From Escherichia phage LHE287: a DNA stretch of 64,000 bases. Position numbers and translations under genes: made by a program. Positions 47,001-61,314 of this stretch are shown here, one piece after another (the first letter of the stretch is position 1; each line of letters opens with the position of its first letter). The notes beneath the pieces were generated by a model, which saw only the letters and a list, made by a program, of their open reading frames with translations, ran no database searches and had not been told where the DNA came from. The stretch is from the sequence record PP761450.1. The stretch is one strand, 5' to 3'.

Positions 47001-48862
47001 GTGAAGTTAGAGGTGACGTCAGCGCCATTTGCGTTCTTCACGCTGATCAGCTTGTAACCATCATGGTTCCCAAGTTGTGCGCTGGCCGCCGCAGTAAACG
47101 TCACAGTCTCGGTGACTTCGGTAACAGTCTTGGTCTTGATCGTCGCTGTGGTGCGGACCATCAATGCCAACAGGTTGATAGACTGGTTGGCGTACCCCGC
47201 GCCCAGGGAAATCTGTAGTGCTGAACCAACCGGAGTACCAGCCAGGGACAGTCCCGAAGAGATATCAAACTGAGCTGCAGTGCCATCTGCCTTCGCTGCG
47301 GAGTACAGTGAAAACTCAGGGCTGAAGCTGTAACCCAGAGGAGCAGAGATTGAGCCTGCACCAGCGGCGTTCAACGTGATCTTGTTTGACCGCAGGACAG
47401 TGTAGTTGATGTCGATGGTGCCTGTAGGTGCTAGAGTCTTCACACCAAATACAGGAAGAGGGAAGATCAGGTCAATCGCCGAACTCTGGCTGAACTGATT
47501 GGACTCCAGTTCGCAAGAGAACATGGTTGTGCCGCTTTCTTCGTATGCAACTTTGGTAACAGTACCCATGTCCCCAGTCACAACCAGGTCGCGCATATAC
47601 AGACGGAATTCAGTACCAGAGCGCTCTGCCGAAATCAGCAGGGCGGTGGCCTGCACATCGCTGGATGCGTTCAGGAACTTGTAGCGGATTGTGCGGGAGA
47701 CAACCGGAACCCCTTTGGAGTTCTTGGACACCAGATAGTTGCCAGTCGAAACAGCCACAGGGTTGTTGTTCAGGATATCAGTGTCACGGGCTTTGTCAAT
47801 TATGACCAGCTCTTCGCCGAGGTTTTCGATACGACGACCACGAACGTAGGATATCCCTGGCTTCATAACCGCCACGAATTTGCTTTCGTCGCCACCTTCG
47901 GCCGGAGTGTATACGCCACCGTTGTTGTTCTGTTTCAGATGTTCACGCAGGTCGATCTGGTGAGTAGAGACGTTGTAGTCACCATTGGTCTCATAGGTAC
48001 GCTGAGCCATGGCGTCTTCGAGGATGTTGTACGTTGACTGGGTGACCATGGACTGAATGCGACCGTCTTTCACCTTCGCCAGTTCAACGAAGTCGGCCAC
48101 TTCTTCATCATAACCGTAGCGAGACAACACGAGGTCGACGCGCAGGCGATGCGCACCAGGGGCTTTAGAGTTCGGAGTACCCTGAGCATTGGAGAACAGA
48201 CTTTCATCTTCTGCTTCAGTCACGATTGTTTCTGTAACTTTGAAGCCAATGCGGTGAGATGTAGAGTTCGATGCGTTGTCTACGATCAAAGTGGCTGGTT
48301 CAACATCCAGGAACATACCACGAACGAAATAAACACCCTTTGTCATGCGAGCGACAATCGAACCGCCAACAGTATCGGCCACACCATAGCCGACACGGAT
48401 GAAGTTATCGTTCACGTCATAAGTGTTGAAGTATAGATTGTCGCCAGCTTCGAAACCGTCTGAACTACCACTCTCAGTCATCTCTAAGATGGCATACATT
48501 GTATCCGGCTCAGCTGGATAACGTTCCAAAGACAGGACGCGTGCTTTCGCATTGTTGTCCTTGCCCAGAACATAGAGTTCGGAGATACCTTCCAGATCAG
48601 TGAACTCACTACCACCAGCCAGAGTGAACTTCATGGACACAGCAGTATTGGTGATCGTCAGGCCGCCGGGGATAACCATTGAACCGTCTTTGAACAGATG
48701 GTTGCCAAGTTTCTCCAGTTGATCCTGGAAGATGGTCTGCATCTGGTTCAGTTCACGCGTCTGAACTTTGATAGGTGCCGGACGGAATAGGATGCGCGAA
48801 AAACGCTTCTCTGGATTCCAGTCATCCCAATATGGGCGGCGGTTGAGGTTCATTTCTTGCAT
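44024..48862 (-). CDS. very large virion structural protein (1612 aa; baseplate/fibre-like)
   Basis: Start MQEMNL (48862) with GGAG RBS; CTAAATA late motif at 48897; sits in the structural module. Confidence 0.6.
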   Translation of the reverse strand: MQEMNLNRRPYWDDWNPEKRFSRILFRPAPIKVQTRELNQMQTIFQDQLEKLGNHLFKDGSMVIPGGLTITNTAVSMKFTLAGGSEFTDLEGISELYVLGKDNNAKARVLSLERYPAEPDTMYAILEMTESGSSDGFEAGDNLYFNTYDVNDNFIRVGYGVADTVGGSIVARMTKGVYFVRGMFLDVEPATLIVDNASNSTSHRIGFKVTETIVTEAEDESLFSNAQGTPNSKAPGAHRLRVDLVLSRYGYDEEVADFVELAKVKDGRIQSMVTQSTYNILEDAMAQRTYETNGDYNVSTHQIDLREHLKQNNNGGVYTPAEGGDESKFVAVMKPGISYVRGRRIENLGEELVIIDKARDTDILNNNPVAVSTGNYLVSKNSKGVPVVSRTIRYKFLNASSDVQATALLISAERSGTEFRLYMRDLVVTGDMGTVTKVAYEESGTTMFSCELESNQFSQSSAIDLIFPLPVFGVKTLAPTGTIDINYTVLRSNKITLNAAGAGSISAPLGYSFSPEFSLYSAAKADGTAAQFDISSGLSLAGTPVGSALQISLGAGYANQSINLLALMVRTTATIKTKTVTEVTETVTFTAAASAQLGNHDGYKLISVKNANGADVTSNFTLDGGQRDAAYYLSNLISSTGAISGTFTVVYQYFAHSSGDFFTADSYSSINYPDIPNYVSSSSGTVYGLADSLDFRPKITSGASDTDMVRPNTAIILDAEYYLPRIDAVYLADNGVFNVARGVSSNNLASPAIPDNGMRLYELMIPPYTANIDDIQIRTIDNRRYTMRDIGKLETRISNVEYYTSLSQLESSAMSQQVFDPITGNPRFKNGIAADPFKDFRLIDDLSADWVGSIDTDNGRLRPFVQQNAIDLTPVGWNNVQDGMVVCNYTREISVRQDYATTTINVNPYAVFNWEGFLKLNPTTDYWFENYYVTPRVINETINTRGAIKEGSVYGTWRTVSVSERVWEPHGAGGVWWGYRYRTTVSTRDVTTYTYTDKTTTTLTGEQIVETQVIPYMRKTNINFEATGLRPFTRVYPFFSGRDVSAYCTPNGGVLGGALNTDANGNIKGVFAVPQNETIKFNTGDNVFRLTDSPVDSKSADDTLTNAEAVHKSFGKKQGIQKTYVNTRVLGYTSSKSTENKTETVEVAKWKDPIAQSFMVATNIGGEYIEGIEVFFSTKSRDIPITLEIREMSNGLPATTVVTRKTLNPSEVSVSTDSSVPTMFKFDYPVYLQAQTEFAIVLLANTQDYNAYIAEMGKKNLLTNEFIAKQPYTGVFFTSSNGTTWTPNQTADMKFRVYRCNFSAGSNIVTFDAKVGPKIRPLGLNTVKCVNGSSTVTVYAPGHGLTAGESVTLSGLTGGCGFTPEQLNAQHTVTDATFTTFKFVLSSNADSDGQIGGEAASFLGNYLVDMFYASVTNSALEGSVLKLEYRYRDATSNSFSDWVEFESDTDVSLPTEGIYRQVGDFQVRATMTRNESNVYTAPMIDGDDFTIIFNTYGVDPFEDVFSYVTKDIGFDNPCTTLKQYFGAMLPSQSSMTVQVKLLRAGQEMDNVAWETVTPTSPLVNDGSTFFEYEYDKTVDSTNPFVGLKIRLLVRGNRIAPPSFKDFRLIALA

Positions 48863-48896
48863 TTTGATGCTCCATCGATAGGTGCCATTATAGAGA

Positions 48897-48903
48897 TATT
48901 TAG
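48897..48903 (-). promoter_or_regulatory. late-promoter-like CTAAATA motif
   Basis: 35 nt upstream of the 1612-aa gene. Confidence 0.45.
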
Positions 48904-48933
48904 TATACAACCAACCGAGGAATAGAAAGAAAT

Positions 48934-49141: not shown

Positions 49142-49480
49142 ATGTTACCTGACACCACACAAGTTGGCATATTGACCTCCGCATTCTTCAGGAACTATTG
49201 CAGGAGGTGCTGGTACAGCAAGAGATGGAGAACGAAAACAAGACGAACCAATGGAACTATGGTAGTATGTTCAGACGCTAGTGTTAAAGTACAAGGTACT
49301 GACATTGCTAACAGGGACAACGTATTAGCTACATACACACTTGGTTCAACTGACCCATTCATGGTGGATGGTATTCAGTTGGGTATGTTTAACATATCCG
49401 GTCAGACTATTACTTTAACTGCTGTATCGGTAAGGGTAATGCAAACAGTTAACTCTATAAAAAGTATTATTAATAAGTAA
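49142..49480 (+). CDS. questionable plus-strand ORF
   Basis: Listed ORF without a convincing RBS; C-terminal 70 aa look protein-like. Confidence 0.3.
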   Translation: MLPDTTQVGILTSAFFRNYCRRCWYSKRWRTKTRRTNGTMVVCSDASVKVQGTDIANRDNVLATYTLGSTDPFMVDGIQLGMFNISGQTITLTAVSVRVMQTVNSIKSIINK

Positions 49481-49483
49481 AAC

Positions 49484-49503
49484 AACCCCGCCGATGCGGG
49501 GTT
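49484..49503 (-). terminator. hairpin terminator after tail spike gene
   Basis: aaccccgcc-gat-gcggggtt followed on the minus strand by TTGTTTTA. Confidence 0.5.
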
Positions 49504-49508
49504 GCAAA

Positions 49509-51482
49509 TCAAACAACCTGAATTATTCCTTGCACATTAGTGATGTTTGTGCCAGCAATGGCAATAGTCATCCTGTTGTTCTCATCATATGTGATAGTCA
49601 TGGGTTTAGCGCCAGATGGTTGCATTAGACCAAAGCTACCAAATAACGTACCACATGCATTTATTGGAGTTCCATTATCAGTAACCAGCAGGTTAATGTG
49701 AACTATATTATATGGGCTACGTACCACCTGAGTGGTAATGGTGGCTCTTGCCGGGTCGCTGGTGTTGACAGTACAGAACGGAACGCTATTACTTGGCAGT
49801 ACTGTGCTAATAGTTTGCCCCGTATATCTCTTAGGGGCTGTACTGCTTTGGCGTAAATTTCGCGCAATAACAGCCCCTGATGAATCCGTGAGTGTTTCAA
49901 TGCGCTTAATCTCCACTCCTTGTCCAACGAGATAGTTACCAGGTATCGAACTGCCATTCTGAATGGTGCTTACGTAATCCTCAATCTCAATGATGAATGT
50001 CTTCTCACCACTACGACCAGTGACTGCAAAATCACCACGCCAGTTAGTTCCTGATGGATGTGCTCCATCCTTAAAGTTGCATGATTTATCAATCCCACCT
50101 GATAAAACAGTTGACGCTTCCAGATGAATCATTTGCCAATGTAAATATGAATTTCTGATATAAAGCCTTTCAACTATTGCTGAAGGATCAACTCGTATCC
50201 CTATTGTGTTTTTCTCAAAGTACCAGTTATGTAATTCAAGGTTTTGAATATTTCCTGAATCAGAACCATAAATATCCACACCACGGACACCATTTTCAGC
50301 TGTGCAAGAATCAAAACAATCTGCTGAGCTAAGACCGGTTATCTTCCAGTTAGTATGGAAACCAGACGCTACGCATTTACGAACGCCCATTGCCTGGATA
50401 TTTGATTCAATCTGGAATGCTATAGACCCATCAGCGCCTGCCGGAGGACTCATTGCGGAGATTTCCTCAATGGTTCCATAGAAGCTGTCTTTAACTATAA
50501 CTGGGTAACGCGTCGCAGTGATGCGAGTGTCCTTGATTGCACTCCCATAAATCATCTGGTACATCTTGTAAGCAGAACCGGCAAATCTGATGCGCCCACC
50601 ACCAATACGCATATCAGGAACAAGGCCAATTGAGCCAACTGAACTAGCAGGAACTGACCAGTTTGATTTAAGTTCCCCTGCATCCCAATAAGCTGACTCA
50701 AAAATAGTGTTTGTGCCAACTACGCCTTGGCTACCATTCCCTTCTATGACTGCGTGGTTTAAATCTATTGAAACTCCACCTGGAACCAGAATTGTCCCCA
50801 TTATTTTAACTACAGATTTTCTAGGCAGCTTTAACTTGATCATCGAGCCGTTTGCTTCTGTTATTGCACTTTGTATTGCGGCAGTGTCATCAGCAACACC
50901 ATTGCATTTAGCACCCCATCCTCTGATGTCACCTTCATCTCGCCATCTTGCAATCTGTAGTGCTGGGTATAGAGATGCACCATTAGGATTTGATATTTGA
51001 TTTCTTAATACAATATCTCCAACACTAACCCACTTACCTAAACCAACGCCACCAGTACTCTCTGGGGTTGAGCCAGCAGAAACGATTTTAGGTAATTCAC
51101 CATCCCAGCGATACTTACCATCAGCAAAGACAACCAGTTCATTCTTAACATTAACGGTTACTCCGGTAGAGAATGACCCAGGTAAAGTCACATACTCTTC
51201 ACGAGTGACAGCTAATTCACCCAAGTCCACATTACCAGCAGAGTGAACTAATACCCCAGCAGGGCTGAGACTTACAGCAGTAACCCCTGAGTCAATACTG
51301 GTTGGTAATGAGTAAGCACGCTGGGTAGTCTTATCATAAATAACTTTGTAACCACCCAAGTCCACACCCACAGCAAAGTAGACTACTTCATTTTGCTTGA
51401 CACCAAACTTACGGGCAATGGCTTGTTTGTTGGTAAGAATACCAGTGGAGCCTTTACCACCTTGTGAGAATAACTCGTTCAT
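49509..51482 (-). CDS. tail spike protein (right-handed beta-helix type)
   Basis: 657 aa; N-terminal module shared with the 1183-aa spike; Asn/Gly-rich repetitive C-terminal domain. Confidence 0.65.
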   Translation of the reverse strand: MNELFSQGGKGSTGILTNKQAIARKFGVKQNEVVYFAVGVDLGGYKVIYDKTTQRAYSLPTSIDSGVTAVSLSPAGVLVHSAGNVDLGELAVTREEYVTLPGSFSTGVTVNVKNELVVFADGKYRWDGELPKIVSAGSTPESTGGVGLGKWVSVGDIVLRNQISNPNGASLYPALQIARWRDEGDIRGWGAKCNGVADDTAAIQSAITEANGSMIKLKLPRKSVVKIMGTILVPGGVSIDLNHAVIEGNGSQGVVGTNTIFESAYWDAGELKSNWSVPASSVGSIGLVPDMRIGGGRIRFAGSAYKMYQMIYGSAIKDTRITATRYPVIVKDSFYGTIEEISAMSPPAGADGSIAFQIESNIQAMGVRKCVASGFHTNWKITGLSSADCFDSCTAENGVRGVDIYGSDSGNIQNLELHNWYFEKNTIGIRVDPSAIVERLYIRNSYLHWQMIHLEASTVLSGGIDKSCNFKDGAHPSGTNWRGDFAVTGRSGEKTFIIEIEDYVSTIQNGSSIPGNYLVGQGVEIKRIETLTDSSGAVIARNLRQSSTAPKRYTGQTISTVLPSNSVPFCTVNTSDPARATITTQVVRSPYNIVHINLLVTDNGTPINACGTLFGSFGLMQPSGAKPMTITYDENNRMTIAIAGTNITNVQGIIQVV

Positions 51483-51506
51483 ATAAACCTCATTGTTTTT
51501 CTAGAA

Positions 51507-51525
51507 AACCCCTCCGAAGAGGGGT
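51507..51525 (-). terminator. UUCG-loop terminator
   Basis: aacccctc-cgaag-aggggt followed on the minus strand by TTTCTAG. Confidence 0.55.
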
Positions 51526-51533
51526 GGATTAAT

Positions 51534-53771
51534 TTAACGCTTAAGTGCTACTACCTGAGAATCAGTAGTAATTTCGAAATAGAATGTACCCGCAGCAGAG
51601 CCAATTGGGGTAGCAATGAGTTCGTTGGAAGAACCAATTGACCAGGTAAAGCTAGGTGTTCCTGCTACATTACCTGACACGTAACCAAGCTGCTTAATTA
51701 ACTCACACTCTTTGCCCGTATCTGCACCGGAACAAACTAGTAGTTTATAAATAGCAACACGACGAGTAGCTGTAGAGGGTGGGTTAACACTGGCGACTAT
51801 AGTTACTTCACCGGCAAACGACTCAGTGCTTGAGTCAGAATTATTACCGTGACCCTGGGTACTTCTCAGGTTACATACTGCTACCGGTCCTGATACGCCA
51901 GACTTCTGTGTATAAAGTGTATGGTGTACCCAATCAATATAACCACCATTACGAGATTGCCAACCATTCGGTAGAACACAGTTATCTACAATAACTACAG
52001 TTTCATTACCATCAGCAATAATATCTGGGGTTGTGCCAATACTGGCGTGGGCTGTACTATCCGCTATTCGAACACGGTTGATAGTATTCTGTGCACTAAT
52101 TGCATGAAGCAGGTTTGCATGAGTACCTGAACCGTTGTTGTGACAGAAGGCTCCATGAATAGCAATACTTCTGTTTTCCCCCAAGCTGGAGGATGCTTCA
52201 ACCATAATGCCAGCACCTTTATTACTCTCAGCACCGGGAGCAACCATAACAAAACCTTCTGACTTGGCAATAGCATACCCATGCCCAGCATTCTGATCAG
52301 ATGCTGGAGTAATGGCAGCAGAGTAGTTCATAAATCCGAATCGCCAGCCATTGCCACCGTTCTTCAACTGATACCCTGCAAGGGTTGTAGTGCTGGTTTT
52401 CTGTGCTGTTATTGAGAAGTGGACACCATTACCAGTACATTGGTCAGCAAGAACTTGGTTATAGACGTTAACCCAGCTATTACCTATATACACACCATCC
52501 GATGTAGCAGTGGATACTCTAAGGTTATCAATTGATGTACGGGAAGCAGTTTCAACACGTAACCCGTTGTATCCACCTTTGGTTCCTAAGTCCTTTAGCT
52601 TGAAGCCTTGAACATATTTACCGCTTGGTAGATTAGTATTTAAGATTGCACTTCCTGCTGGGAAACCAGAAGCAGCAACAAGAAGAGTGCTACCCTTACC
52701 TGAACCGGAGATTAAGTATTCATCCCCTGTATCATCTTCACCTGCTGGAACACGGTCAAACACTATTGGGGTATCTAGAGACATTTGTCTACGTGGAAGA
52801 TTGAGACGCCCCCCTATTTTATAGGTTGTGTTCTGCGAACGGAGGAAATCTAATCCAGCGTTAATCTGAATACCCACATCTGAACCAGAAAAGTCATCCA
52901 TAGACAAGGTACGGTCAGTGAGGTCTTCCAGCATTCCCCCAACAGTTCCTTTATTGTATGTTTCTGCTGGGTCATACCCAATCTCACCTGCACCATTAGA
53001 TGCAGACAGATTCTCATAAGAATCCGGAGTAGGAACCAGGTCTACTGTAATATTTCCCGGAGAGTAGGTTAACTGACCACCTGAGACAGACTTAATATAT
53101 ACGTTAGTAGGTAGGTTAGGTAAACCGTAAGCCTTCTGCTCACTAACAGAGAATACTACCTTCTTACCATTAAGAAACTGAGAAGTATCCGTGCTGAGAA
53201 TTACTTCAGAGTCTTTTACGTTAGCAGCACGAGCGATTTCTTGAATACTTCGGTCAAACAACAGACCGATATTCGATTGTTTAACAGACATTTCAGCGAC
53301 TACCCAAACGCCTGCAGTCAGCGCAGTTTGTAAAGACACTTTCCCTGTCGTTCTGTCATAGGAATATTCAATTTCGGGTGTTTTGTACTCACCACCGATA
53401 TAAAGAGATTGGACTCCATAAGATGTGTAATCAGGAGTGAACTCGGTTTCACCTCCTATAGCCTGAAACTTATAGATTCGAATCCCGGTTTTATAATCTT
53501 CTGGAGACAAAATCTTATCAAACAGGCAGAACACAACGTCACCTTTGGATAATGCACGCCCGAGATTCAACGTATTTCCATCGATTTCAAAGTTGTCTAA
53601 CGGAACTTGCATGCCACCGTTGATTGTGACTATACCAGTGACAGGGTAGAAAGGGAGGGAGATAAACTTCTCTCCGCCCGTTGCTGTGTAAGTGTATGGA
53701 ATCTGGTGTGGAGCTGTTACGACCGCTCCAAAGATGCTCTCGACGTTTCTGGTCATTTGAAGATACCCCAT
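51534..53771 (-). CDS. tail spike protein (beta-helix type)
   Basis: 745 aa; late motif CTAAATACCCC upstream; start could alternatively be 53756. Confidence 0.65.
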   Translation of the reverse strand: MGYLQMTRNVESIFGAVVTAPHQIPYTYTATGGEKFISLPFYPVTGIVTINGGMQVPLDNFEIDGNTLNLGRALSKGDVVFCLFDKILSPEDYKTGIRIYKFQAIGGETEFTPDYTSYGVQSLYIGGEYKTPEIEYSYDRTTGKVSLQTALTAGVWVVAEMSVKQSNIGLLFDRSIQEIARAANVKDSEVILSTDTSQFLNGKKVVFSVSEQKAYGLPNLPTNVYIKSVSGGQLTYSPGNITVDLVPTPDSYENLSASNGAGEIGYDPAETYNKGTVGGMLEDLTDRTLSMDDFSGSDVGIQINAGLDFLRSQNTTYKIGGRLNLPRRQMSLDTPIVFDRVPAGEDDTGDEYLISGSGKGSTLLVAASGFPAGSAILNTNLPSGKYVQGFKLKDLGTKGGYNGLRVETASRTSIDNLRVSTATSDGVYIGNSWVNVYNQVLADQCTGNGVHFSITAQKTSTTTLAGYQLKNGGNGWRFGFMNYSAAITPASDQNAGHGYAIAKSEGFVMVAPGAESNKGAGIMVEASSSLGENRSIAIHGAFCHNNGSGTHANLLHAISAQNTINRVRIADSTAHASIGTTPDIIADGNETVVIVDNCVLPNGWQSRNGGYIDWVHHTLYTQKSGVSGPVAVCNLRSTQGHGNNSDSSTESFAGEVTIVASVNPPSTATRRVAIYKLLVCSGADTGKECELIKQLGYVSGNVAGTPSFTWSIGSSNELIATPIGSAAGTFYFEITTDSQVVALKR

Positions 53772-53791
53772 AAAGGATGTCCAATATGGGG

Positions 53792-53798
53792 TATTTAG
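53792..53798 (-). promoter_or_regulatory. late-promoter-like CTAAATA motif
   Basis: CTAAATACCCCATA with inverted copy TATGGGGTAT before the start. Confidence 0.45.
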
Positions 53799-53835
53799 GC
53801 TGAACTAATAAATTTATGAACAAAGGTATAATAAG

Positions 53836-53855
53836 AACCCCGCCAAAGCGGGGTT
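53836..53855 (-). terminator. hairpin terminator
   Basis: aaccccgcc-aaa-gcggggtt. Confidence 0.5.
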
Positions 53856-53859
53856 GGTT

Positions 53860-56800
53860 TTATGTATAAGATGTCTCTGATATGGATATCGCCACTGTTT
53901 TAGACCGCGATGGTGTGCTTCTGTTTACAAAATACACGGTGTGTGTTACCCCCATATCCGCATTTAGTTGGTAGTACTCAGCCCCATAAGGTACTCTGTA
54001 ACTCAGAGGGTGCACAGCAGAAGCTGTTAATGCGCCTGAGTAATTGGGTGCGGACGGTTTTGCGTTCAGGAAGTTATACCATATGGACACTCCGGATACA
54101 GAACCGGTATTGGGCGCTACGCAACTCTTGTCTATGATGCCAGTGTAGATGTTGGCAACCGCGCCGCATTGAACAAGAACAGAACCAACGCCTTTAAGGA
54201 TGGCTCCTTTAAGGTACGCTGGATAGTTACTTGACATGCACGCAATCGTGCAAGACACAAAAGTATCATTTATTGACTCTAAGCCACGGGTGTTATTGTT
54301 TATAGACGTAGACTTGACGAGATAGGCGCAGTCCACATCGTTGAACACATTTGACTCAATATCTAATCTAAAGTTTGTAGATATAGTCACACATGCAACC
54401 ATAACCCCTAAATGAATGTTTCTGAATTTACAATTTTTAATGCTTACACTACGTGTACCCTGTACGTAACCAAAAACTCCAGCAACACCCCCGTTTATTA
54501 GCGCGGTTACTGTACTAGGGAGGTACAGGTCCGCTGTTTTTGTGAAATCTACTAAAGAAGTATAATCAATAGCGGCCCTGCTCTCGTTATAGTAGAACTC
54601 ACAGTCATCAAGATAAATTCTTTGCGTCGGGGCGGACACGAAACCAGCCCAACCGAACGGTTTGGAACCTGTATCATATAAATTAACACAACCAGACGAA
54701 GGAGTGCCAGCACCCCCTACGTAGTAAAACTTATTCCTGCGTAGGTCTACTGTGTAGCTTACCGTATTCTCTATCCCGGCAGATAATCTAATAGTGTTGT
54801 CAGTAAATTGGTTAAAAATAACCCCCAGATTCGTCAAACTGTAACACTCTATGTTGTTATTGGAGATAATATTACCTTTGTTAAAAGCGTAGTCCCCAAT
54901 ACCATGTCGGGCATTTACTTTGTTACCGGTAGCCACGTTGTAATCACAATGAGTGTGGAAGATAAGCCCCCAGTGATATCCTGAAGTAGCTTCTCCATTG
55001 ATTACATTACCAGTAAATACGTTACGGCAGCAGTTCTTAAAGACGATTAGCACTGCATCTTTAATTACCTCTGGAGTAACAAAGCTGTTATTAGAGAAGG
55101 AGTTATGATAACAGTTCCAGGACAACATGAAGGTGTACCCAATATCCAGCGTGTTATTCTCAACCTTGTTAAAGTTAGAGAAGTAACTAATCTCTGGATA
55201 ATTTAAACGACCAGTGCAGTTAGAAATACCACCTCCATAGTTCCTACGGAATCGTAAAACGCCGTCGGTATCTGCCGTACCAGTATTTTCATCTATAAAA
55301 TGGATATTTCTAAAGTGTGCGTGGTTTACCTCGGAGTACACAATAGCGGTAGCTCCAGGAGCAGAAAAGTTGGGCGTTATATCGAGATACGCACGACTAT
55401 TTATGCTGTCATATTTAATCACCTTGAACAGGCAGGAGCGAAGCGTTCCAAAATTGGCGTCATCCTTTGATAGCGACATTATATCTATGGTGTTTGCCGT
55501 AGCAGTTTCTGCGGCCATAACATAGTCAGTTTTACCGTTGGTGATTTCCAGGTATTTCCCTGTCAGGTCCACAGAAGAACTAACCCACGGTTGGTTGTAA
55601 ACTAAATTTACACTCTGTGTGGTGGAAGTGGATGGGCTTGTAAAGAATATTTTTGCACCATCAGCTATTCTAAGAGATGCTTTTATCCTTGCTTTGAATT
55701 CTCCAATACCAAGAGGTAGGGTTATGCTAGTGGCAATGTATGTCGTAGTATAGTCCGGCAGGATGACATATTTAAGGTCGTTAGCCATAGCCTCGATAGC
55801 TGCGGAATCGTCAGTGATGCCGTCGCAAACCGCTCCGTAATCAAGTATGGTTTTCAATTGCTCTAACTGCTCAGCAATAGTCCTGCTAACTGTTCCATCC
55901 CCTTTATTTTTGTTTCCTATGATACTAGCTCCAGAGTTCGAAGCCAGATCGCTTCTTAAGGAAGTATCCCCAACACTAATCCACGCGCCCGAACCTTCCC
56001 CACCAGTTGTCGAAGGGGTTGAACCAGCAGAAACTTCTTTAGGTAATGCACCATCCCAACGGTACTTGCCATCAGTAAAGACAACCAGTTCATTCTTGGT
56101 ATTAACTGTTACACCGGTATCAAATGACCCGGACAATGTGACGTACTCTTCACGAGATACAGCCAATTCCCCGAGATCTACAGAACCCGCTGAATGTACA
56201 AGTACAGCGGAAGAACTAAGACTGACAGCAGTAGTACCAGGGACAATATCAGCAGGCAAGGGATAAGCCCTTTGCGTCTCCTTGTCATAAATAACTTTAT
56301 ACCCACTTAACGCAGCACCAACACTAAAATAAACGACCTCTGTATCTTTAACATTGGTCACACGAGCAACTTCCCGCAAAGTATAATCAATTTGATTATA
56401 GATGTTTGGTGTTCCATTGATAATTACAACAACTTCATCCTCCGGTTCCAGTTCTTGCGCAAGAGTGATTTTACTGGTTAATGGATCGAATGTGAATCCC
56501 AGATTTTTATACTGGCGACTTCCGTTTATATCAATGGCCGGAACATCATCAACAACGACGTCCAACGTGATTTCGGTTTCACCACCAATCGCTGAACCCC
56601 CATTATAGACCCAAGTAATCGTAGAAGAACTAGAACCACCGCCATTACCCAATTGAATAGGAGTATATTCAATCACCTGAAGTTCTGTGTTAGCTGGCAA
56701 AGAAGGACTGAAAGTGATTACATTCCCATCTAGTGAATATTTAGATTCCGCAAGACGTTTCCCATCAGCATACACGTCCACGATTGTTGGTGGAGTATTG

Positions 56801-57411
56801 AGAGCGACAGAACTTGTTTCAGAAGCCAAAATTTTTGTAAAGATTTCACGACTGTAGACACGACCTTGGCCAAGACCGACGCCGGATGTAATAATCCAAC
56901 CTTGTTCAGGCCCAGACCAAGTGAACGTTGCTGATACATTATCGGTTGTTATAGCCATGTCTTCAGTGGAGCCATACAAATTATTTCCAGAAGGAGACAC
57001 GGTCAATGGGTAAGTGGCAAATTTCCCATAAGCATCACAAATAGTAACGGAATCCCCAATACGCGTAGGGGAAGGGAGAACCACTGTAGATGCCCCTGTG
57101 GTATTATTAATGAGATAGCCTCGCCCTTCAGTGAGCGTTGTCGTAGAGGCATGCGGAAGGACTTCCCAGCGGATACCACCGCCACCCAGCGGCAACCATC
57201 CACCATTTTCATAGAAGCCCTCAAATTCGTCGGAGTCGGCATTGTAGCGAACGGAAGACGGGAGTCCTGCGCTGGTATTACCCTCGGGTAAAGTCAGGAC
57301 AGCATCTGGTCCATGCTCAATCGTACCCGTGTTGAGGATACCAGCCAAAGTAGACTGCTCTTCAGCCGCCAGACCGAGAGGGAAAACAGGCTGTGTTGGT
57401 TTATTAGCCAT
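53860..57411 (-). CDS. large tail spike protein (beta-helix type)
   Basis: Start MANKPTQ (57411); repeated N-x-x-x-N rungs (NNSFVTPEV..., GNVINGE..., GNKVNARHGIGDYAFNKGNIISNNNIE). Confidence 0.7.
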   Translation of the reverse strand: MANKPTQPVFPLGLAAEEQSTLAGILNTGTIEHGPDAVLTLPEGNTSAGLPSSVRYNADSDEFEGFYENGGWLPLGGGGIRWEVLPHASTTTLTEGRGYLINNTTGASTVVLPSPTRIGDSVTICDAYGKFATYPLTVSPSGNNLYGSTEDMAITTDNVSATFTWSGPEQGWIITSGVGLGQGRVYSREIFTKILASETSSVALNTPPTIVDVYADGKRLAESKYSLDGNVITFSPSLPANTELQVIEYTPIQLGNGGGSSSSTITWVYNGGSAIGGETEITLDVVVDDVPAIDINGSRQYKNLGFTFDPLTSKITLAQELEPEDEVVVIINGTPNIYNQIDYTLREVARVTNVKDTEVVYFSVGAALSGYKVIYDKETQRAYPLPADIVPGTTAVSLSSSAVLVHSAGSVDLGELAVSREEYVTLSGSFDTGVTVNTKNELVVFTDGKYRWDGALPKEVSAGSTPSTTGGEGSGAWISVGDTSLRSDLASNSGASIIGNKNKGDGTVSRTIAEQLEQLKTILDYGAVCDGITDDSAAIEAMANDLKYVILPDYTTTYIATSITLPLGIGEFKARIKASLRIADGAKIFFTSPSTSTTQSVNLVYNQPWVSSSVDLTGKYLEITNGKTDYVMAAETATANTIDIMSLSKDDANFGTLRSCLFKVIKYDSINSRAYLDITPNFSAPGATAIVYSEVNHAHFRNIHFIDENTGTADTDGVLRFRRNYGGGISNCTGRLNYPEISYFSNFNKVENNTLDIGYTFMLSWNCYHNSFSNNSFVTPEVIKDAVLIVFKNCCRNVFTGNVINGEATSGYHWGLIFHTHCDYNVATGNKVNARHGIGDYAFNKGNIISNNNIECYSLTNLGVIFNQFTDNTIRLSAGIENTVSYTVDLRRNKFYYVGGAGTPSSGCVNLYDTGSKPFGWAGFVSAPTQRIYLDDCEFYYNESRAAIDYTSLVDFTKTADLYLPSTVTALINGGVAGVFGYVQGTRSVSIKNCKFRNIHLGVMVACVTISTNFRLDIESNVFNDVDCAYLVKSTSINNNTRGLESINDTFVSCTIACMSSNYPAYLKGAILKGVGSVLVQCGAVANIYTGIIDKSCVAPNTGSVSGVSIWYNFLNAKPSAPNYSGALTASAVHPLSYRVPYGAEYYQLNADMGVTHTVYFVNRSTPSRSKTVAISISETSYT

Positions 57412-57448
57412 TTCAAATACCCCTAAATGTGTTCGTTTCATCTAGGGG

Positions 57449-57455
57449 TATTTAG
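57449..57455 (-). promoter_or_regulatory. late-promoter-like CTAAATA motif
   Basis: CTAAATACCCCTA with inverted copy TAGGGGTATTT before the start at 57411. Confidence 0.45.
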
Positions 57456-57457
57456 TT

Positions 57458-58648
57458 TTAGAAAGAAGCTACAATAGAATAATCGACCGAACAAGCAGTT
57501 GTTGTATTCGCATTAACAACGGAAATTCTCAATTTACCACCCACCACAGAACCTGTGAACGTCACTGTACCGCTCGTACTTTTCTGAACCAACAACTCCG
57601 ATTTGATAGTTCCGTCGCGAGTTATGGTTACTCGATATGTATCAACAACGTTACCTGTTCCCCATTGCGCGGTCACCAGTATTTGACAAAGGTTCACCAA
57701 ATCAAAATCTGGAAGAGCCGTCGTCCCAGAAGCCGAAACCGTGTAAGAAGACAAATTCGTTTTGGTACGATAAACGGCGTTCCCTAAACTATTGTCGACA
57801 GAGGTCATCTTGGCGTTATACGTTGATACATTAACTTTATCACTGGAAAGAGAACTGATGCTGTTATCCAGAGATGTCATCTTCGTGTTGTACGTGCTGA
57901 CCTCGACTTTATTACCCAGAGACGTATTGATATTGGAGATACTCAAATCCAACGACGCCATCTTAGTGTTGTAAGTCGATGTGTTGACTTTCCCGTTCAA
58001 CGATGTGTTGATGTTATTAATCTGGGACTCTAGACTCAGCATATCTGAGTCATACGCTGTCGATGTCACATATCCATTAAATCGGTTATCTGCAAACAAC
58101 GCATCAAAAAATGCAGTCATTGTCCAATAACGCGCTCCAGAATCTGTTTGTACTGGAATTGAAGTCGGCATCGTTGATCCGGTATACGCAGACAATCTGG
58201 TGAAATCCAAATTGAATTTGTAATATCCGGATGCCAACAACTCCCCAGCCAAACCAGAACCAGGTGGGGTAGTGTCTTCACTGACACCATGCTTTCTCAA
58301 CATGCTCAGGTTAACACCATCTGTCGCTACTATAGGCTCATCCGCGATAGACAGTTTCTTTCCAGCCGGAACAGTCAGGCCGCCGTTGGCTGTCAACAAC
58401 GCAGCAAAAGTCTTGTTCCCGTTGATCGTTTGTTCACCACCGTCGGTGCGGATCACTTTGTTTTCCAGTGTGTCGTAGATATTATCCACAGAACGCTTCA
58501 GCTCGTATGTCAAATGAGCTGAAGGAGGGAACAACGGATCATCAACAGCGAAATCGTTGACAACATCAGTCTTGCTTATTTTATCGTCAACAGAAGAAAG
58601 GATTGCATCAATCTGCTGACCTGTGTATCGACTCAGAAAATCGGCCAT
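57458..58648 (-). CDS. tail fibre/spike-associated protein with tandem repeats
   Basis: 396 aa; about 24-aa repeats (NINTSLNGKVNTSTYNTKMASLD...) and a beta-rich C-terminus. Confidence 0.55.
   Translation of the reverse strand: MADFLSRYTGQQIDAILSSVDDKISKTDVVNDFAVDDPLFPPSAHLTYELKRSVDNIYDTLENKVIRTDGGEQTINGNKTFAALLTANGGLTVPAGKKLSIADEPIVATDGVNLSMLRKHGVSEDTTPPGSGLAGELLASGYYKFNLDFTRLSAYTGSTMPTSIPVQTDSGARYWTMTAFFDALFADNRFNGYVTSTAYDSDMLSLESQINNINTSLNGKVNTSTYNTKMASLDLSISNINTSLGNKVEVSTYNTKMTSLDNSISSLSSDKVNVSTYNAKMTSVDNSLGNAVYRTKTNLSSYTVSASGTTALPDFDLVNLCQILVTAQWGTGNVVDTYRVTITRDGTIKSELLVQKSTSGTVTFTGSVVGGKLRISVVNANTTTACSVDYSIVASF
57800..58020. repeat. Imperfect tandem DNA repeat (about 72-nt period, 3 units) inside the fibre gene
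   Basis: Units beginning GTCATCTTGGCGTTATACG, GTCATCTTCGTGTTGTACG and GCCATCTTAGTGTTGTAAG. Confidence 0.5.
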
Positions 58649-58650
58649 TT

Positions 58651-59505
58651 TTAACTCCTTGAACTTTCTAGGAATACAGTAAACCCAGCAGGATGGAAAT
58701 GCTGACGGAAGACGCGGTCAAACACACCTTCAAATTCAGATACGTTGCCAGGAACTCTTATCACATACGTGAATTCATCATAGTAGTAATCGTCACGCAT
58801 TCCTGTCGCGCCGTCACATTCAAAGTTGTCATCCAGGCCACCAATTGCTTCCTTGGGATAATACACACTCACTGGGCAACCAAAGTAAATCCAGAAGAAC
58901 AATTCAATCGCTTTCTTCGTCCCGCGAATGCGATAAATGTGTTTAAGTAACTTCAACCAGCGTACATGGTCCAGTGTCCGGCGTTCAGTTCCCTCGACAT
59001 ACACAGAGAGTGTGTCTCCGTCTGAAGTCACCAAACTGTCCGAACCAACTGGCACAAACTTCCCGAACTCCAGGAAGGACTTATCAACCGTTCTCTGGAA
59101 TCCAAAATCAGCATACCAATCGTCGATGCGTTCGTTCTTGTCTTCCATTGAGATTAATGGTCGACCGTCCACGTCCAGCAAATCTTCGAAGTCTAGCGCC
59201 ATCATGTTCTCAAACGTGCGCGTCAGGAACTTGTCTTCCAAGAAGTCTTTGGCCTCAGTACCTGGCGTCTTGCGCTTCTTGATGTCAATCAACTGCTCAA
59301 TAGGAGACTGATCCGTATTTGGGTTCACCCAGCCACCAGTGTCTGCCAGATACGCCAAGATCTCCTCTTCGGTGAATCCCTGCTGTCGATACAACCAGTT
59401 GAAGAACGTATCCATAAACTCGATGAATACTGGGAATTCATTCTGGTAAAACAATGGGGTTTCATATTTCACCCCATTGTGTCCGTTATTAAGATCTTTG
59501 GACAT
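58651..59505 (-). CDS. baseplate-associated protein (position of gp7/gp53 in T4)
   Basis: 284-aa ORF overlapping the gp6-like gene end. Confidence 0.35.
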   Translation of the reverse strand: MSKDLNNGHNGVKYETPLFYQNEFPVFIEFMDTFFNWLYRQQGFTEEEILAYLADTGGWVNPNTDQSPIEQLIDIKKRKTPGTEAKDFLEDKFLTRTFENMMALDFEDLLDVDGRPLISMEDKNERIDDWYADFGFQRTVDKSFLEFGKFVPVGSDSLVTSDGDTLSVYVEGTERRTLDHVRWLKLLKHIYRIRGTKKAIELFFWIYFGCPVSVYYPKEAIGGLDDNFECDGATGMRDDYYYDEFTYVIRVPGNVSEFEGVFDRVFRQHFHPAGFTVFLESSRS

Positions 59506-61267
59506 AACGCACCTCCGGCTCCACAGTTACAGCACCGATGCGGAGCACCTGATTCTGTGTGGCCTGAATGTTCTGGTCAAGACCGTCTGGAGACACAATT
59601 ATTGTCACACCCTCAGTGTTGTAGTTGGATACTATGATACGCTGGAGTTCAACAACGCCAGTCACATAATCAACCGTTCCAACAGCTTGTACCAGATATT
59701 CCTTGGTCGTGTCTGTTGTACTCACCTTGTACATATTCAGGACACCACTGACGTCGCGTATGTAGTAAGTGAATTCGACCTCGGCCGGAAGCGGCTTAAA
59801 CCCACTGATACGCACAGAACCAGACGCAATCGAGCGCCCAAAATCGAATGTGAAGCTGTCCAGTACCCCGTAGTCTGGCTTGAAATGGCGTTTATACTTC
59901 ACAGAAGTGATGTTTGACACTATCGATCTGTCCATGTCGGTGATGGCCGACTGTAACTGCTCTTTATCGAACAGTTCGTCGAATCCTTCTAGGTTCCCCA
60001 AGCCCCAGTTGACAACACCGTTCTTCACGACTATCTTCAACTGCTCTTCGGTATAGGACGTGGAAGTGGGATCCCAGAACACGCGGGTGGTGACATCAAC
60101 ATAAGTCAGTTCAGCGTCGACAATCTTGGGTGTGATCGTGCCCACATTGTACTTGTCCAACGTCGCCACGATATCTGCCTTCTCAGCGTCCGAGAGCGCC
60201 TCACCAACAGAAGGTATCACAGCAATGTAAACGTATCCGGAGTCGGGCGGAGAGAGCGTGTCGCCGCCATATGCTTTGGCGCGGGAGACGTTAGAGAACA
60301 GACGCTCGGTCAACACAGCATAATCGACTTCGGCCACTGCCGCACCCTCAGCCTGATAAGCCAGCGGAGCAAGGCGCTTGATGTCCTCAATGCTCTCTGG
60401 GTCCTTACCACCGGAAGAACGTTCTGACACCAGCTCAACATCTACAAGGTTGAATCCCCCGATGGAAGACGCGGAGGACAAGGTAGTGATGTCATTGCCG
60501 TCTGCACCAGCTGTCTCCAGATACTGGAGGTACACGACGTTCCCGTCTTCTACTCGCTTACAGATATACCCATCACCGAATTCGAACGTGTACATCCCGT
60601 CCAACCCCAGCTCAACGAAGTAGAGTTGCGCATACTGGCTCAAATCGAACGGGCTGACATATCGTGAGAAGGTAGACCGCACGTCAGATGTCTCAGATTC
60701 CTGCACCTGCACCACCATATGGTCGATGTCCACGGAAGAAGATGGGATCACATAGGTAGAGATCGCGCTGCCTTCCACATCATAAGACTTGTACAGCCAG
60801 TTACCCTGTATGAGTTTGATGTTCTCGAACTTGTAAGAGCCGTCTACAAGAGAGGCACTCACAGGTTGGTCAACCGTGAAGTTATAAGATTTGCCATCCT
60901 TCACCCCAATGAACATCGCGCGGCGATCCATTACAATCGTGTCTGGAGCCGTGCTGGCGTCATATGGAGTGACTGTGACGTTTGCGTACAGGTACGCGGC
61001 CTGGTAGTTGTGAGGGGTGTAAGATAAGAACCCCGCCGCCAGACCGACATTAGAACGCTGTTGAGCAGAGTGAAGATGGCTTTCGCCATTCAGCATGTTC
61101 TGCATGAACCCGATAGAGTTGGCATCCGAGGCCAAGATACGCACGATTGCACTGAGACCAGAACCTTCAAAGTCATAATCCTTGAAAGTTGGATCAGCTT
61201 TCATGCGCTTCTTGATAAGATACTCGAAAGCCCTGACATCGAGTGAAGGGACTGTTTGCGTGGCCAT
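59489..61267 (-). CDS. gp6: baseplate wedge protein (gp6-like)
   Basis: Start MATQTV (61267) with GGAGAT RBS; DYDFEGS and ITPKI match T4 gp6 as I recall it; late motif at 61308. Confidence 0.7.
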   Translation of the reverse strand: MATQTVPSLDVRAFEYLIKKRMKADPTFKDYDFEGSGLSAIVRILASDANSIGFMQNMLNGESHLHSAQQRSNVGLAAGFLSYTPHNYQAAYLYANVTVTPYDASTAPDTIVMDRRAMFIGVKDGKSYNFTVDQPVSASLVDGSYKFENIKLIQGNWLYKSYDVEGSAISTYVIPSSSVDIDHMVVQVQESETSDVRSTFSRYVSPFDLSQYAQLYFVELGLDGMYTFEFGDGYICKRVEDGNVVYLQYLETAGADGNDITTLSSASSIGGFNLVDVELVSERSSGGKDPESIEDIKRLAPLAYQAEGAAVAEVDYAVLTERLFSNVSRAKAYGGDTLSPPDSGYVYIAVIPSVGEALSDAEKADIVATLDKYNVGTITPKIVDAELTYVDVTTRVFWDPTSTSYTEEQLKIVVKNGVVNWGLGNLEGFDELFDKEQLQSAITDMDRSIVSNITSVKYKRHFKPDYGVLDSFTFDFGRSIASGSVRISGFKPLPAEVEFTYYIRDVSGVLNMYKVSTTDTTKEYLVQAVGTVDYVTGVVELQRIIVSNYNTEGVTIIVSPDGLDQNIQATQNQVLRIGAVTVEPEVRYVQRS

Positions 61268-61307
61268 GATAATCTCCATCACCTGAGTTTGAATATGGTG
61301 TTGAAGA

Positions 61308-61314
61308 TATTTAG
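61308..61314 (-). promoter_or_regulatory. late-promoter-like CTAAATA motif
   Basis: 41 nt upstream of the gp6-like gene. Confidence 0.45.

What the first reader, a model, noticed from the sequence alone, without database searches (positions are those of the whole stretch)
49509..58648. Tail-spike cluster with shuffled N-terminal module and a repeat-built fibre
Three consecutive beta-helix-type proteins (657, 745 and 1183 aa) and a 396-aa repeat protein lie between the gp6-like and the 1612-aa genes. A block of about 110 aa (VVYF.VG...YKVIYDK.TQRAY.LP...VLVHSAG.VDLGELAV.REEYVTL.GSF.TGVTVN.KNELVVF.DGKYRWDG) occurs near the N-terminus of the 657-aa spike and again at residues about 380-500 of the 1183-aa spike (DNA about 51100-51400 versus 56000-56330). 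This indicates domain shuffling between spikes; multiple spikes imply multiple glycan receptors or depolymerase activities.
Basis: partly seen in the sequence, partly recalled or inferred. Interest (0 to 1): 0.5.

Follow-up and report, generated by a model that had tools for sequence, protein, structure and literature searches.

The report
Ackermannviridae branched tailspike gene cluster
This is the well-known tailspike gene cluster of an Agtrevirus-type (Ackermannviridae) E. coli phage: the block shared by two spikes is the conserved "head" domain that joins spikes into a branched complex. It is an ordinary new member with only three spikes and new receptor-binding ends.

Summary
The 657-aa spike (aa 20-171) and the 1183-aa spike (aa 346-497) share a 152-aa block: 70% aa identity, 75% DNA identity, BLASTP E 2e-66.

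The block is not a newly shuffled piece. It is the D1-D2 (TD1-TD2) head domain (Pfam PF18668) found in Ackermannviridae tailspikes. The backbone is 98% identical to Agtrevirus phages. The three genes are orthologues of CBA120 TSP4 (AD-XD1-XD2-XD3 anchor, PDB 7REJ, E 3e-196), TSP2 (XD2-XD3, 6W4Q) and TSP1 (4OJ5). The block lies internally in TSP4 only because TSP4 carries about 345 extra N-terminal docking residues.

What is exchanged is the C-terminal receptor-binding part:
- TSP1: 88% identical to a P22-like E. coli prophage spike.
- TSP2 and TSP4: 81-87% identical to gp63.1-type spikes of G7C/N4-like podophages.

This shared tsp1/tsp3/tsp4 region has been published as a likely recombination site.

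New here:
- tsp3 is cleanly absent.
- The three receptor-binding domains have no close match among deposited phage genomes.

The 396-aa "fibre" is a family-wide conserved protein. It has 24-27-aa helical repeats of variable number and a gp9-like C-terminal domain.

Ordinary; low interest.

The parts
53860..57411 (-). tsp4-like gene. 1183 aa from M11; the ORF from the first ATG reaches 57441.
   Evidence: Residues 11-348 of the ORF match CBA120 TSP4-N crystal structures 7REJ, 7RFO and 7RFV (E 3e-196). PHROG tailspike families also start at residue 11. It is 97-100% identical to RPN242 and ZQ1 TSP4 up to about aa 440-480, then 30% or less.
56407..57411 (-). TSP4 anchor and docking region: AD-XD1-XD2-XD3, aa 1-335.
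   Evidence: Match to 7REJ over chain residues 1-338. The GGGG linker sits at aa 76-79, as in CBA120 (PMC8825819).
55921..56376 (-). TSP4 D1-D2 (TD1-TD2) head. This is one copy of the shared block.
   Evidence: BLASTP against TSP1. Pfam PF18668 at ORF aa 427-492, 81.5 bits. Matches to the heads of 5W6H, 4OJ5 and 6NW9. DNA repeat 55953-56252.
53860..55920 (-). TSP4 receptor-binding body, about 686 aa.
   Evidence: Best match in deposited phage genomes is 37%, to Edwardsiella podophages. It is 88% identical to P0001 and 87% to P0002 over the 684-aa query. P0001 matches at 81% over head plus body (839 columns) and 81.9% nt over 2038 nt. P0001 is a gp63.1-type spike in an N4/G7C-like contig. P0004 (54% identical) carries a P22 head-binding N-terminus. 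The fold was not modelled here.
51534..53756 (-). tsp2-like gene. 740 aa from M6; the ORF from the first ATG reaches 53771.
   Evidence: ORF aa 6-261 match full-length CBA120 TSP2, 6W4Q residues 1-257 (E 8e-126). It is 97-100% identical to RPN242 gp161 over aa 1-160 and 27% or less after about aa 240.
53253..53756 (-). TSP2 XD2-XD3 docking domains, aa 1-168.
   Evidence: 6W4Q match. Similarity to TSP4 ORF aa 284-342. Domain assignment taken from PMC7506556 and PMC8825819.
52986..53252 (-). TSP2 D1-like half-head. A diverged copy of the first half of the shared block; D2 is absent.
   Evidence: 31-34% identity to the TSP4 and TSP1 heads. No PF18668 hit. Agrees with CBA120 TSP2, which has only the first head module.
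51534..52985 (-). TSP2 receptor-binding domain, a right-handed parallel beta-helix.
   Evidence: AlphaFold2 model with mean pLDDT 88 and pTM 0.86. Foldseek against PDB finds tailspikes 6E1R (1e-15), Sf6 2VBK, CBA120 TSP2 and Det7. The same domain occurs at 85-87% identity behind gp63.1-type, P22 head-binding and other N-termini.
49509..51482 (-). tsp1-like gene, 657 aa.
   Evidence: aa 1-212 match CBA120 TSP1 4OJ5 (E 2e-83). 130 of the first 165 residues are identical to CBA120 TSP1, and 18 of the first 19.
50970..51482 (-). TSP1 D1-D2 head, aa 1-171. This is the other copy of the shared block.
   Evidence: (PF18668, 84 bits).
49509..50930 (-). TSP1 receptor-binding domain, aa 185-657.
   Evidence: 88% aa and about 91-93% nt identity to the tailspike of a P22-like prophage at argW of E. 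coli BS15R-A. No close match in phage genomes. A profile of distant homologues hits the first coils of pectin-lyase-fold beta-helices (Sf6 spike 3e-14, GH55 8e-17).
57458..58648 (-). Conserved 396-aa repeat protein (phrog_3838).
   Evidence: Homologues of 369-441 aa occur in Kuttervirus, Agtrevirus and Klebsiella (Taipeivirus-type) phages. AF2 monomer model, pLDDT 67. Top structural matches are gp9-type baseplate proteins.
57779..58063 (-). Repeat region of the 396-aa protein (aa about 196-290). Units of 24-27 aa, STYNxKMxSLDxSI..., predicted helical.
   Evidence: Offsets of 27 and 24 aa. One helix per unit in the model. Copy number differs between homologues by whole units; phage A221 has +27 aa.
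53772..53859 (-). tsp4-tsp2 spacer: terminator-like hairpin (53836-53855) followed by a conserved core and a second hairpin over the first ATG.
   Evidence: fold z = -5.2. The 5' half resembles the RPN242 tsp4-tsp3 spacer and the 3' half resembles the RPN242 tsp3-tsp2 spacer.
49482..49505 (-). Terminator-like hairpin after tsp1. A similar hairpin lies at 51509-51522 after tsp2.
49142..49480 (+). Remnant of a 208-aa G7C/N4-like phage gene, convergent with tsp1.
   Evidence: aa 26-106 are 89% identical to the C-terminal 81 aa of L003:12587-13213, which lies directly downstream of the gp63.1-type spike there.
58651..61318 (-). Flanking baseplate wedge genes: 284 aa (PF23786) and a gp6-like protein.
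   Evidence: The layout matches the published cluster flanks.
44024..48910 (-). Flanking VriC-like 1612/1628-aa gene.
   Evidence: DUF4815 and Phage_spike_2 hits. 98% nt identity to RPN242 gp159. VriC is the published flank of the tsp cluster.

Best explanation
The region is the tailspike (tsp) cluster of an Agtrevirus-like Ackermannviridae myophage. It encodes a three-spike version of the CBA120-type branched receptor-binding complex.

Proposed assembly, inferred from CBA120 biochemistry:
- TSP4 anchors to the baseplate through its AD domain.
- TSP4 carries XD2 and XD3 docking domains in front of its own D1-D2 head and beta-helix body.
- TSP2 docks on TSP4 through XD2.
- TSP1 docks with its D1 head on TSP4-XD3.
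- TSP3, which in CBA120 needs TSP2 plus TSP4-XD3, is not encoded.

The block shared by TSP1 and TSP4 is the paralogous D1-D2 head. It serves as a docking and structural module. Because it is conserved in DNA across spikes and phages, it also serves as the joint at which receptor-binding domains are swapped by homologous recombination.

The three C-terminal bodies are independent acquisitions, from a P22-like prophage spike and from G7C-like gp63.1-type spikes. Each presumably binds and cleaves a different surface polysaccharide.

The 396-aa gene is a family-wide conserved virion protein. It is probably a trimeric coiled-coil baseplate or adaptor protein and is not part of the variable spike set.
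For: Shown:
- The backbone is 98% nt identical to Agtrevirus phages ZQ1, RPN242 and AV101.
- TSP4-N equals 7REJ (E 3e-196). The TSP2 N-terminus equals 6W4Q (E 8e-126). The TSP1 head equals 4OJ5 (E 2e-83; 130/165 identical).
- PF18668 is present in TSP1 and TSP4.
- The shared block has E 2e-66, 70% aa identity and 75% nt identity.
- Identity to RPN242 falls sharply from 97-100% to below 30% just after the head in TSP4 and after D1 in TSP2.
- The TSP1 body is 88% identical to a P22-like prophage spike.
- The TSP2 and TSP4 bodies are 81-87% identical to gp63.1-type spikes in N4/G7C-like contigs, and also occur behind P22 head-binding and other N-termini.
- The TSP2 body is modelled as a tailspike beta-helix.
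- The gene order vriC, tsp cluster, three baseplate genes matches the literature.

From the literature:
- The XD/TD assembly model (PMC8825819 and PMC11414711).
- The same nucleotide-identity region in tsp1, tsp3 and tsp4, interpreted as a recombination site (PMC10791037; PMC8432352).
Against: - No tsp3 is present, so the complex cannot be the canonical four-spike one.
- Assembly, trimerisation and enzymatic activity are all inferred, not tested.
- The beta-helix fold was modelled only for TSP2. TSP1 has profile support for the first roughly 90 residues only. The TSP4 body has no structural test.
- The TSP1 head is only slightly closer to CBA120 TSP1 (77% over aa 20-165) than to its own genome's TSP4 head (71%). 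Some homogenisation between the paralogues cannot be excluded.
Confidence: 0.88

Rival explanations
1. The shared block reflects a recent duplication or gene conversion between tsp1 and tsp4 inside this genome. This is true 'domain shuffling between spikes'.
For: The two heads are 70% identical in protein. That is almost as close as the TSP1 head is to its orthologue in another genus. Engineered phages do recombine between tsp genes through such homologies (PMC11414711).
Against: - DNA identity is only 75% over 300 nt. The TSP4 head is 95-100% identical to the TSP4 heads of sister phages, so each copy follows its own lineage.
- The same paralogous heads occur in all CBA120-type TSP1, TSP3 and TSP4 proteins and in G7C gp63.1.
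Confidence: 0.05
2. The three spikes attach to the baseplate independently and do not form a branched complex.
For: Nothing here tests assembly. With tsp3 absent, the complex differs from the studied one.
Against: - Only TSP4 has an anchor domain. TSP2 and TSP1 carry just the XD2-XD3 or D1 docking modules.
- These modules are nearly identical to those shown by ultracentrifugation to bind TSP4-N in CBA120.
- The first 19 residues of TSP1 are 18/19 identical to CBA120 TSP1. The CBA120 study probed this N-terminus with an N14 deletion construct.
Confidence: 0.05
3. The 396-aa protein is a genuine receptor-binding tail fibre built from repeats. It would add a fourth host-recognition device.
For: - Some databases name homologues 'tail fiber protein'.
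- It has helical repeats and a C-terminal beta-sandwich that also resembles the C-terminal domains of tailspikes.
- Its middle domain (aa 126-195) is the most variable part, 49% mean identity.
Against: - The N- and C-terminal domains are conserved (about 76% mean identity) across genera that infect Salmonella, E. coli, Shigella, Enterobacter and Klebsiella. This is unlike a host-specific tip.
- The review counts it among three baseplate genes.
Confidence: 0.25

Closest known systems
Kuttervirus CBA120 TSP1-TSP4 branched tailspike complex (ORF210-213; PDB 4OJ5, 6W4Q, 6NW9, 5W6H, 7REJ)
   Same: - TSP4 AD-XD1-XD2-XD3 is nearly identical, with the GGGG linker at aa 76-79.
- TSP2 has XD2-XD3 plus D1 only.
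- TSP1 has the D1-D2 head with the same N-terminus.
- The cluster lies between vriC and the baseplate genes.
   Different: - There is no tsp3.
- All three receptor-binding bodies are unrelated to those of CBA120.
- The backbone belongs to a different genus (Agtrevirus-like).
Agtrevirus tsp clusters (AV101, RPN242, ZQ1; PMC10791037)
   Same: - The backbone is 97-98.6% nt identical.
- The N-terminal domains of TSP4 and TSP2 are 97-100% identical.
- The paper already reports the nucleotide-identity region upstream of the beta-helix in tsp1, tsp3 and tsp4, and receptor-binding domains derived from prophages and distant phages.
   Different: - The paper describes phages with four tsp genes, or two (ZQ1, pSal-SNUABM-2). 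This one has three: tsp4, tsp2 and tsp1.
- The three receptor-binding domains have no close match in 50,697 phage records.
- Its TSP1 head is only 54% identical to RPN242 TSP1.
Gamaleyavirus G7C gp66/gp63.1 two-spike complex (PDB 4QNL)
   Same: - gp63.1 has the same D1-D2 head and N-terminus as TSP1 (111/165 identical).
- gp63.1-type spikes in G7C-like contigs carry the bodies found here on TSP2 and TSP4.
- A remnant of the gene downstream of gp63.1 lies next to tsp1.
   Different: It is a podovirus with two spikes. Its anchor protein gp66 lacks AD-XD1 homology.
Limestonevirus clusters (no tsp3; TSP4 often without a receptor-binding domain)
   Same: A member of the same subfamily (Aglimvirinae) that also lacks tsp3.
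   Different: Here TSP4 keeps a full 686-aa body, and the backbone is Agtrevirus-like rather than a Dickeya phage.
T4 gp9 (PDB 1QEX) and the gp9 of Klebsiella phage KP1/Lilla1 (9F4A), compared with the 396-aa protein
   Same: They are the top structural matches to the model. All share a general plan of helical (coiled-coil) and beta domains in a baseplate-region gene.
   Different: - There is no sequence similarity.
- Only about 120-140 residues align.
- The 396-aa protein has an extra block of 24-27-aa helical repeats.
- The model is a monomer of moderate confidence.

Membership tests
CBA120-type branched tailspike complex (Ackermannviridae tsp cluster) | TSP4 with an N-terminal anchor domain followed by gp10-like XD1, XD2 and XD3. 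| tested here: met
   ORF aa 11-348 match 7REJ, 7RFO and 7RFV (E 3e-196). The GGGG linker is at aa 76-79.
CBA120-type branched tailspike complex (Ackermannviridae tsp cluster) | TSP2 with N-terminal XD2-XD3 followed by a single head module (D1). | tested here: met
   6W4Q residues 1-257 match (E 8e-126). There is a D1-like copy but no PF18668 hit. This agrees with PMC7506556.
CBA120-type branched tailspike complex (Ackermannviridae tsp cluster) | TSP1 that begins directly with a D1-D2 head. | tested here: met
   4OJ5 residues 1-214 match (E 2e-83). 130/165 residues are identical.
CBA120-type branched tailspike complex (Ackermannviridae tsp cluster) | A fourth spike, TSP3, with a D1-D2 head between tsp4 and tsp2. 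| tested here: not met
   Only an 88-nt spacer separates tsp4 and tsp2. TSP3 is not universal in the family: Limestonevirus and ZQ1 lack it.
CBA120-type branched tailspike complex (Ackermannviridae tsp cluster) | Cluster located between vriC and three baseplate genes. | tested here: met
CBA120-type branched tailspike complex (Ackermannviridae tsp cluster) | C-terminal right-handed beta-helix receptor-binding and depolymerase body in each spike. | tested here: inconclusive
   - TSP2: met.
- TSP1: only the first coils are supported, by profile, plus 88% identity to a P22-like prophage spike.
- TSP4: homology to other spikes only; not modelled.
CBA120-type branched tailspike complex (Ackermannviridae tsp cluster) | Physical assembly of the spikes into one complex on the baseplate, and polysaccharide cleavage. 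| not testable with these tools
   Needs ultracentrifugation or pull-down, cryo-EM and halo assays.
Pfam PF18668 Tail_spike_N (TSP1/gp66 N-terminal domain; the D2 module) | Score above the gathering threshold of 25 bits. | tested here: met
   657-aa protein: 84 bits (aa 91-156). 1193-aa ORF: 81.5 bits (aa 427-492). The 745-aa protein has no hit.
T4 gp9-type baseplate protein (candidate family for the 396-aa protein) | Structural similarity to gp9 domains. | tested here: inconclusive
T4 gp9-type baseplate protein (candidate family for the 396-aa protein) | Sequence homology to gp9. | tested here: not met
   No significant Pfam or PDB sequence hit: Pfam only a below-threshold PF16187 hit at 16.8 bits against a cut-off of 29.7, and PDB only an E 0.24 match to a nanobody. 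The only PHROG family is phrog_3838, of unknown function.

The most novel reading that the evidence does not exclude
The conserved 396-aa protein is the gp9-type adaptor that a recent review says Ackermannviridae lack. It would be a trimer whose C-terminal beta-domain sits in the baseplate and whose N-terminal part receives the TSP4 anchor domain. A coiled-coil spacer of 2-5 repeats of 24-27 aa would set how far the spike complex stands off the baseplate. In this phage the complex would be a natural three-spike version with a fully conserved but vacant TSP3-docking platform on TSP2-XD3.
Probability: 0.3. Interest if true: 0.45.

Novelty: new member of a known kind. Interest (0 to 1): 0.2.

Why it matters
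The region is a textbook example of how Ackermannviridae phages widen host range: conserved docking modules with swappable receptor-binding ends. Its value is therefore catalogue-level:
- three receptor-binding domains not found in any deposited phage genome;
- a natural three-spike Agtrevirus that lacks tsp3 while keeping the TSP2 docking domains 97-100% identical to a four-spike relative. This is relevant to efforts to add or remove spikes by engineering;
- traces of exchange with G7C-like podophages and P22-like prophages.

The gp9-like reading of the conserved 396-aa protein is a modest lead for baseplate structure work.

Tried and rejected
- **Tandem Repeats Finder on the 396-aa gene:** no rows. 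The repeats are visible only at protein level.
- **PDB sequence search with the 396-aa protein:** nothing meaningful.
- **Pfam at E <= 10 on the three receptor-binding segments:** only sub-threshold PF12708, Beta_helix and NosD hints.
- **Profile of TSP4-body homologues against PDB:** it hit only N-terminal adaptor parts and the first coils of the Sf6 spike.
- **Exact-sequence look-up of the 657-aa spike in public assemblies:** not on record.
- **Context of a 99%-identical 396-aa homologue (P0040):** it sits next to a different tsp cluster. No twin of this cluster was found.
- **Attempt to name the O-serogroup of E. coli BS15R-A, host of the prophage spike resembling TSP1:** the O-antigen cluster was located, and it occurs in 8 of 5,426 complete genomes. 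No record names a serotype.
- **Literature search for an Ackermannviridae baseplate cryo-EM structure:** none found in the library.
- **Recent intragenomic duplication of the block:** rejected on the 75% DNA identity.
- **Misleading blast row:** a row seemed to link the TSP1 body to RPN242. It came from a second record in the same file (the E. coli prophage locus) and was corrected.

Full report
**1. What is in the sequence**

Five consecutive ORFs lie on the minus strand:

| Coordinates | Product |
|---|---|
| 58651-59505 | 284 aa |
| 57458-58648 | 396 aa |
| 53860-57441 | 1193-aa ORF |
| 51534-53771 | 745-aa ORF |
| 49509-51482 | 657 aa |

- They are flanked by a gp6-like wedge gene (59489-61318) and a 1628-aa ORF (44024-48910).
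- Database matches to the 1193-aa ORF all begin at residue 11. Matches to the 745-aa ORF begin at residue 6.

**2. The shared block is real**

- BLASTP of the 657-aa protein against the 1193-aa ORF aligns aa 20-237 with aa 356-579, at 54% identity and E 2e-66.
- The core (aa 20-171 versus ORF aa 356-507; window 50970-51425 versus 55921-56376) is 106/152 identical without gaps.
- Its alignment score is 536, against 35 +/- 6.5 for shuffled sequence.
- DNA identity is 75% over 51002-51301 versus 55953-56252.
- The 745-aa protein holds a diverged copy of the first half of the block (aa 169-262).

**3. What the genes are**

- Window 25000-49500 is 97-98.6% nt identical to the Agtrevirus coliphages ZQ1, RPN242, YX22, A221 and AV101 (Ackermannviridae, Aglimvirinae).
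- The 1193-aa ORF (aa 11-348) matches the crystal structures of the CBA120 TSP4 N-terminal region (7REJ, 7RFO, 7RFV; E 3e-196). Its aa 354-512 match the heads of TSP4, TSP1 and TSP3. The GGGG linker lies at aa 76-79, as in CBA120.
- The 745-aa ORF (aa 6-261) matches full-length CBA120 TSP2 (6W4Q, E 8e-126).
- The 657-aa protein (aa 1-212) matches CBA120 TSP1 (4OJ5, E 2e-83). It shares 130 of the first 165 residues and 18 of the first 19. This marks it as TSP1-type rather than TSP3-type.
- Pfam PF18668 (Tail_spike_N, the second head module) is found in the 657-aa and 1193-aa proteins at 84 and 81.5 bits, against a cut-off of 25. It is not found in the 745-aa protein. CBA120 TSP2 likewise has only the first head module.
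- The cluster is therefore tsp4-tsp2-tsp1, between the three baseplate genes and vriC. This is the published layout.

**4. What the block is**

- It is the D1-D2 (TD1-TD2) head.
- In the CBA120 model, TSP4 anchors to the baseplate and TSP2 binds TSP4 through XD2. The D1 head of TSP1 binds TSP4-XD3, and TSP3 binds only a TSP2:TSP4 complex (PMC8825819 and PMC11414711).
- The block is N-terminal in TSP1 and internal in TSP4 only because TSP4 has about 345 extra residues (AD-XD1-XD2-XD3) in front of it.
[quoted passage not shown] It equates this region with the tandem domain proposed as a recombination site (PMC10791037; PMC8432352).

**5. What is shuffled**

Against RPN242, identity changes abruptly:
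- TSP4 is 97-100% identical up to about aa 440-480 and then 30% or less.
- TSP2 is 97-100% identical up to aa 160, 77-82% to aa 240, and then 27% or less.

The C-terminal bodies have other relatives:
- **TSP1 (aa 185-657).** It is 88% aa and about 91-93% nt identical to the tailspike of a P22-like prophage at argW of E. coli BS15R-A. That protein has a P22 head-binding N-terminus.
- **TSP2 body.** It is 87% identical to P0007, a gp63.1-type spike, and 85% identical to P0006, which has a P22 head-binding N-terminus. It also occurs behind at least two other N-termini.
- **TSP4 body.** P0001, another gp63.1-type spike, matches at 81% over head plus body (839 columns) and at 88% over the body alone.
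- P0001 and P0007 sit in N4/G7C-like podophage contigs, downstream of gp66-like genes. Their nucleotide identity to the window is 82-84% over 1.5-2 kb.
- None of the three bodies has a close match in 50,697 deposited phage genomes.
- The TSP1 head itself is only 54% identical to RPN242 TSP1, although the backbones are 98% identical. Heads are therefore exchanged too.
- At 75% nt identity, the two heads in this genome are old paralogues, not a recent exchange.

**6. Fold**

- The TSP2 body was modelled from 26 homologues (pLDDT 88, pTM 0.86).
- The model matches phage tailspike beta-helices: 6E1R at 1e-15, plus Sf6, CBA120 TSP2 and Det7.
- A profile of distant TSP1-body homologues hits the first coils of pectin-lyase-fold proteins, including the Sf6 spike at 3e-14 and GH55 at 8e-17.
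- The TSP4 body was not modelled. Its fold is inferred from its relatives being tailspikes.

**7. Missing tsp3**

- Only 88 nt separate tsp4 and tsp2.
- This spacer has a terminator-like hairpin, a conserved core and a second hairpin.
- Its 5' half matches the RPN242 tsp4-tsp3 spacer at 8 of the 10 informative sites before the shared core. Its 3' half matches the RPN242 tsp3-tsp2 spacer at all but one of the informative sites after the core.
- This is what a clean loss, or non-acquisition, of a tsp3 cassette between repeated spacers would leave. The direction of the event is not resolved.
- TSP2 XD2-XD3 remains 97-100% identical to that of a four-spike phage.
- Reduced clusters are known: ZQ1 has two tsp genes, and Limestonevirus lacks tsp3.

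**8. The 396-aa protein**

- It belongs to phrog_3838, of unknown function.
- Homologues of 369-441 aa occur throughout Ackermannviridae.
- The length differences are whole 24-27-aa repeat units. Phage A221 has one extra exact unit, and the motif count ranges from 2 to 5.
- The N- and C-terminal parts are the most conserved (about 76% mean identity). The middle domain is the least conserved (49%).
- The monomer model (pLDDT 67) has N-terminal helices and a small beta domain. It has one helix per repeat (aa 196-288) and a confident C-terminal beta-sandwich.
- A review states that Ackermannviridae lack gp9-gp11.
- I read the protein as a trimeric coiled-coil baseplate or adaptor protein, with moderate to low confidence. 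A true receptor-binding fibre is the rival reading.

**9. Verdict**

- This is a new member of a well-characterised system: a three-spike Agtrevirus cluster with new receptor-binding domains.
- Receptor specificities, assembly and enzymatic activity are inferred from relatives, not shown here.

Noticed in passing
window 49142-49480 (+): A 112-aa ORF lies convergent with tsp1. Its aa 26-106 are 89% identical to the last 81 aa of a 208-aa protein (phrog_17779). That protein lies directly downstream of the gp63.1-type spike in a G7C/N4-like podophage contig (L003:12587-13213). The first 127 aa are missing here, so the ORF looks like a recombination scar. It is also present, unannotated, in A221, RPN242 and SKML-39.
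   Followed up: partly
window 53772-53859; L001 8907-9024 and 11575-11673: The spacers in front of tsp2 and tsp3 share a roughly 100-nt cassette: the hairpin CCCCGCTTCGGCGGGG, then ATAAATTTATTAGTTCAG.CTAAATACCCCATATTGG, then a second hairpin that covers the first in-frame ATG of tsp2. RNA fold z = -5.2. It may be a terminator plus promoter or translation-control element, and a substrate for cassette gain or loss.
   Followed up: partly
window 49482-49505, 51509-51522, 53836-53855 (-): Each tsp gene is followed by a GC-rich terminator-like hairpin of the same type. This suggests each spike gene is its own unit.
   Followed up: no
L002 and L007 (E. coli BS15R-A, NZ_CP063349.1, 4166454-4177284): The host of the P22-like prophage spike that resembles the TSP1 body has an O-antigen cluster with rmlBDAC, a pyruvyl transferase, wzx, wzy and four glycosyltransferases. 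The cluster is present in only 8 of 5,426 complete E. coli genomes. This makes it a candidate receptor serogroup for TSP1, but no record names the serogroup.
   Followed up: partly
window 57779-58063 (-); alignment A2: The number of 24-27-aa repeats in the 396-aa protein differs between Ackermannviridae (2-5 motif copies; total length 369-441 aa). Phage A221 carries an exact extra 27-aa unit.
   Followed up: partly
window 44024-48910 (-): The VriC-like ORF is called from a TTG codon (1628 aa). The protein has DUF4815 and a weak Phage_spike_2 hit. A review proposes it as the material of the 'prong' structures.
   Followed up: no
L008 (ENA ERZ11466742 contig, 153 kb): A relative whose 396-aa protein is 99% identical has a quite different cluster downstream, with gene products of 1025, 203, 491, 834 and 732+ aa. 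This shows how fast the tsp cluster turns over on a nearly identical backbone.
   Followed up: no
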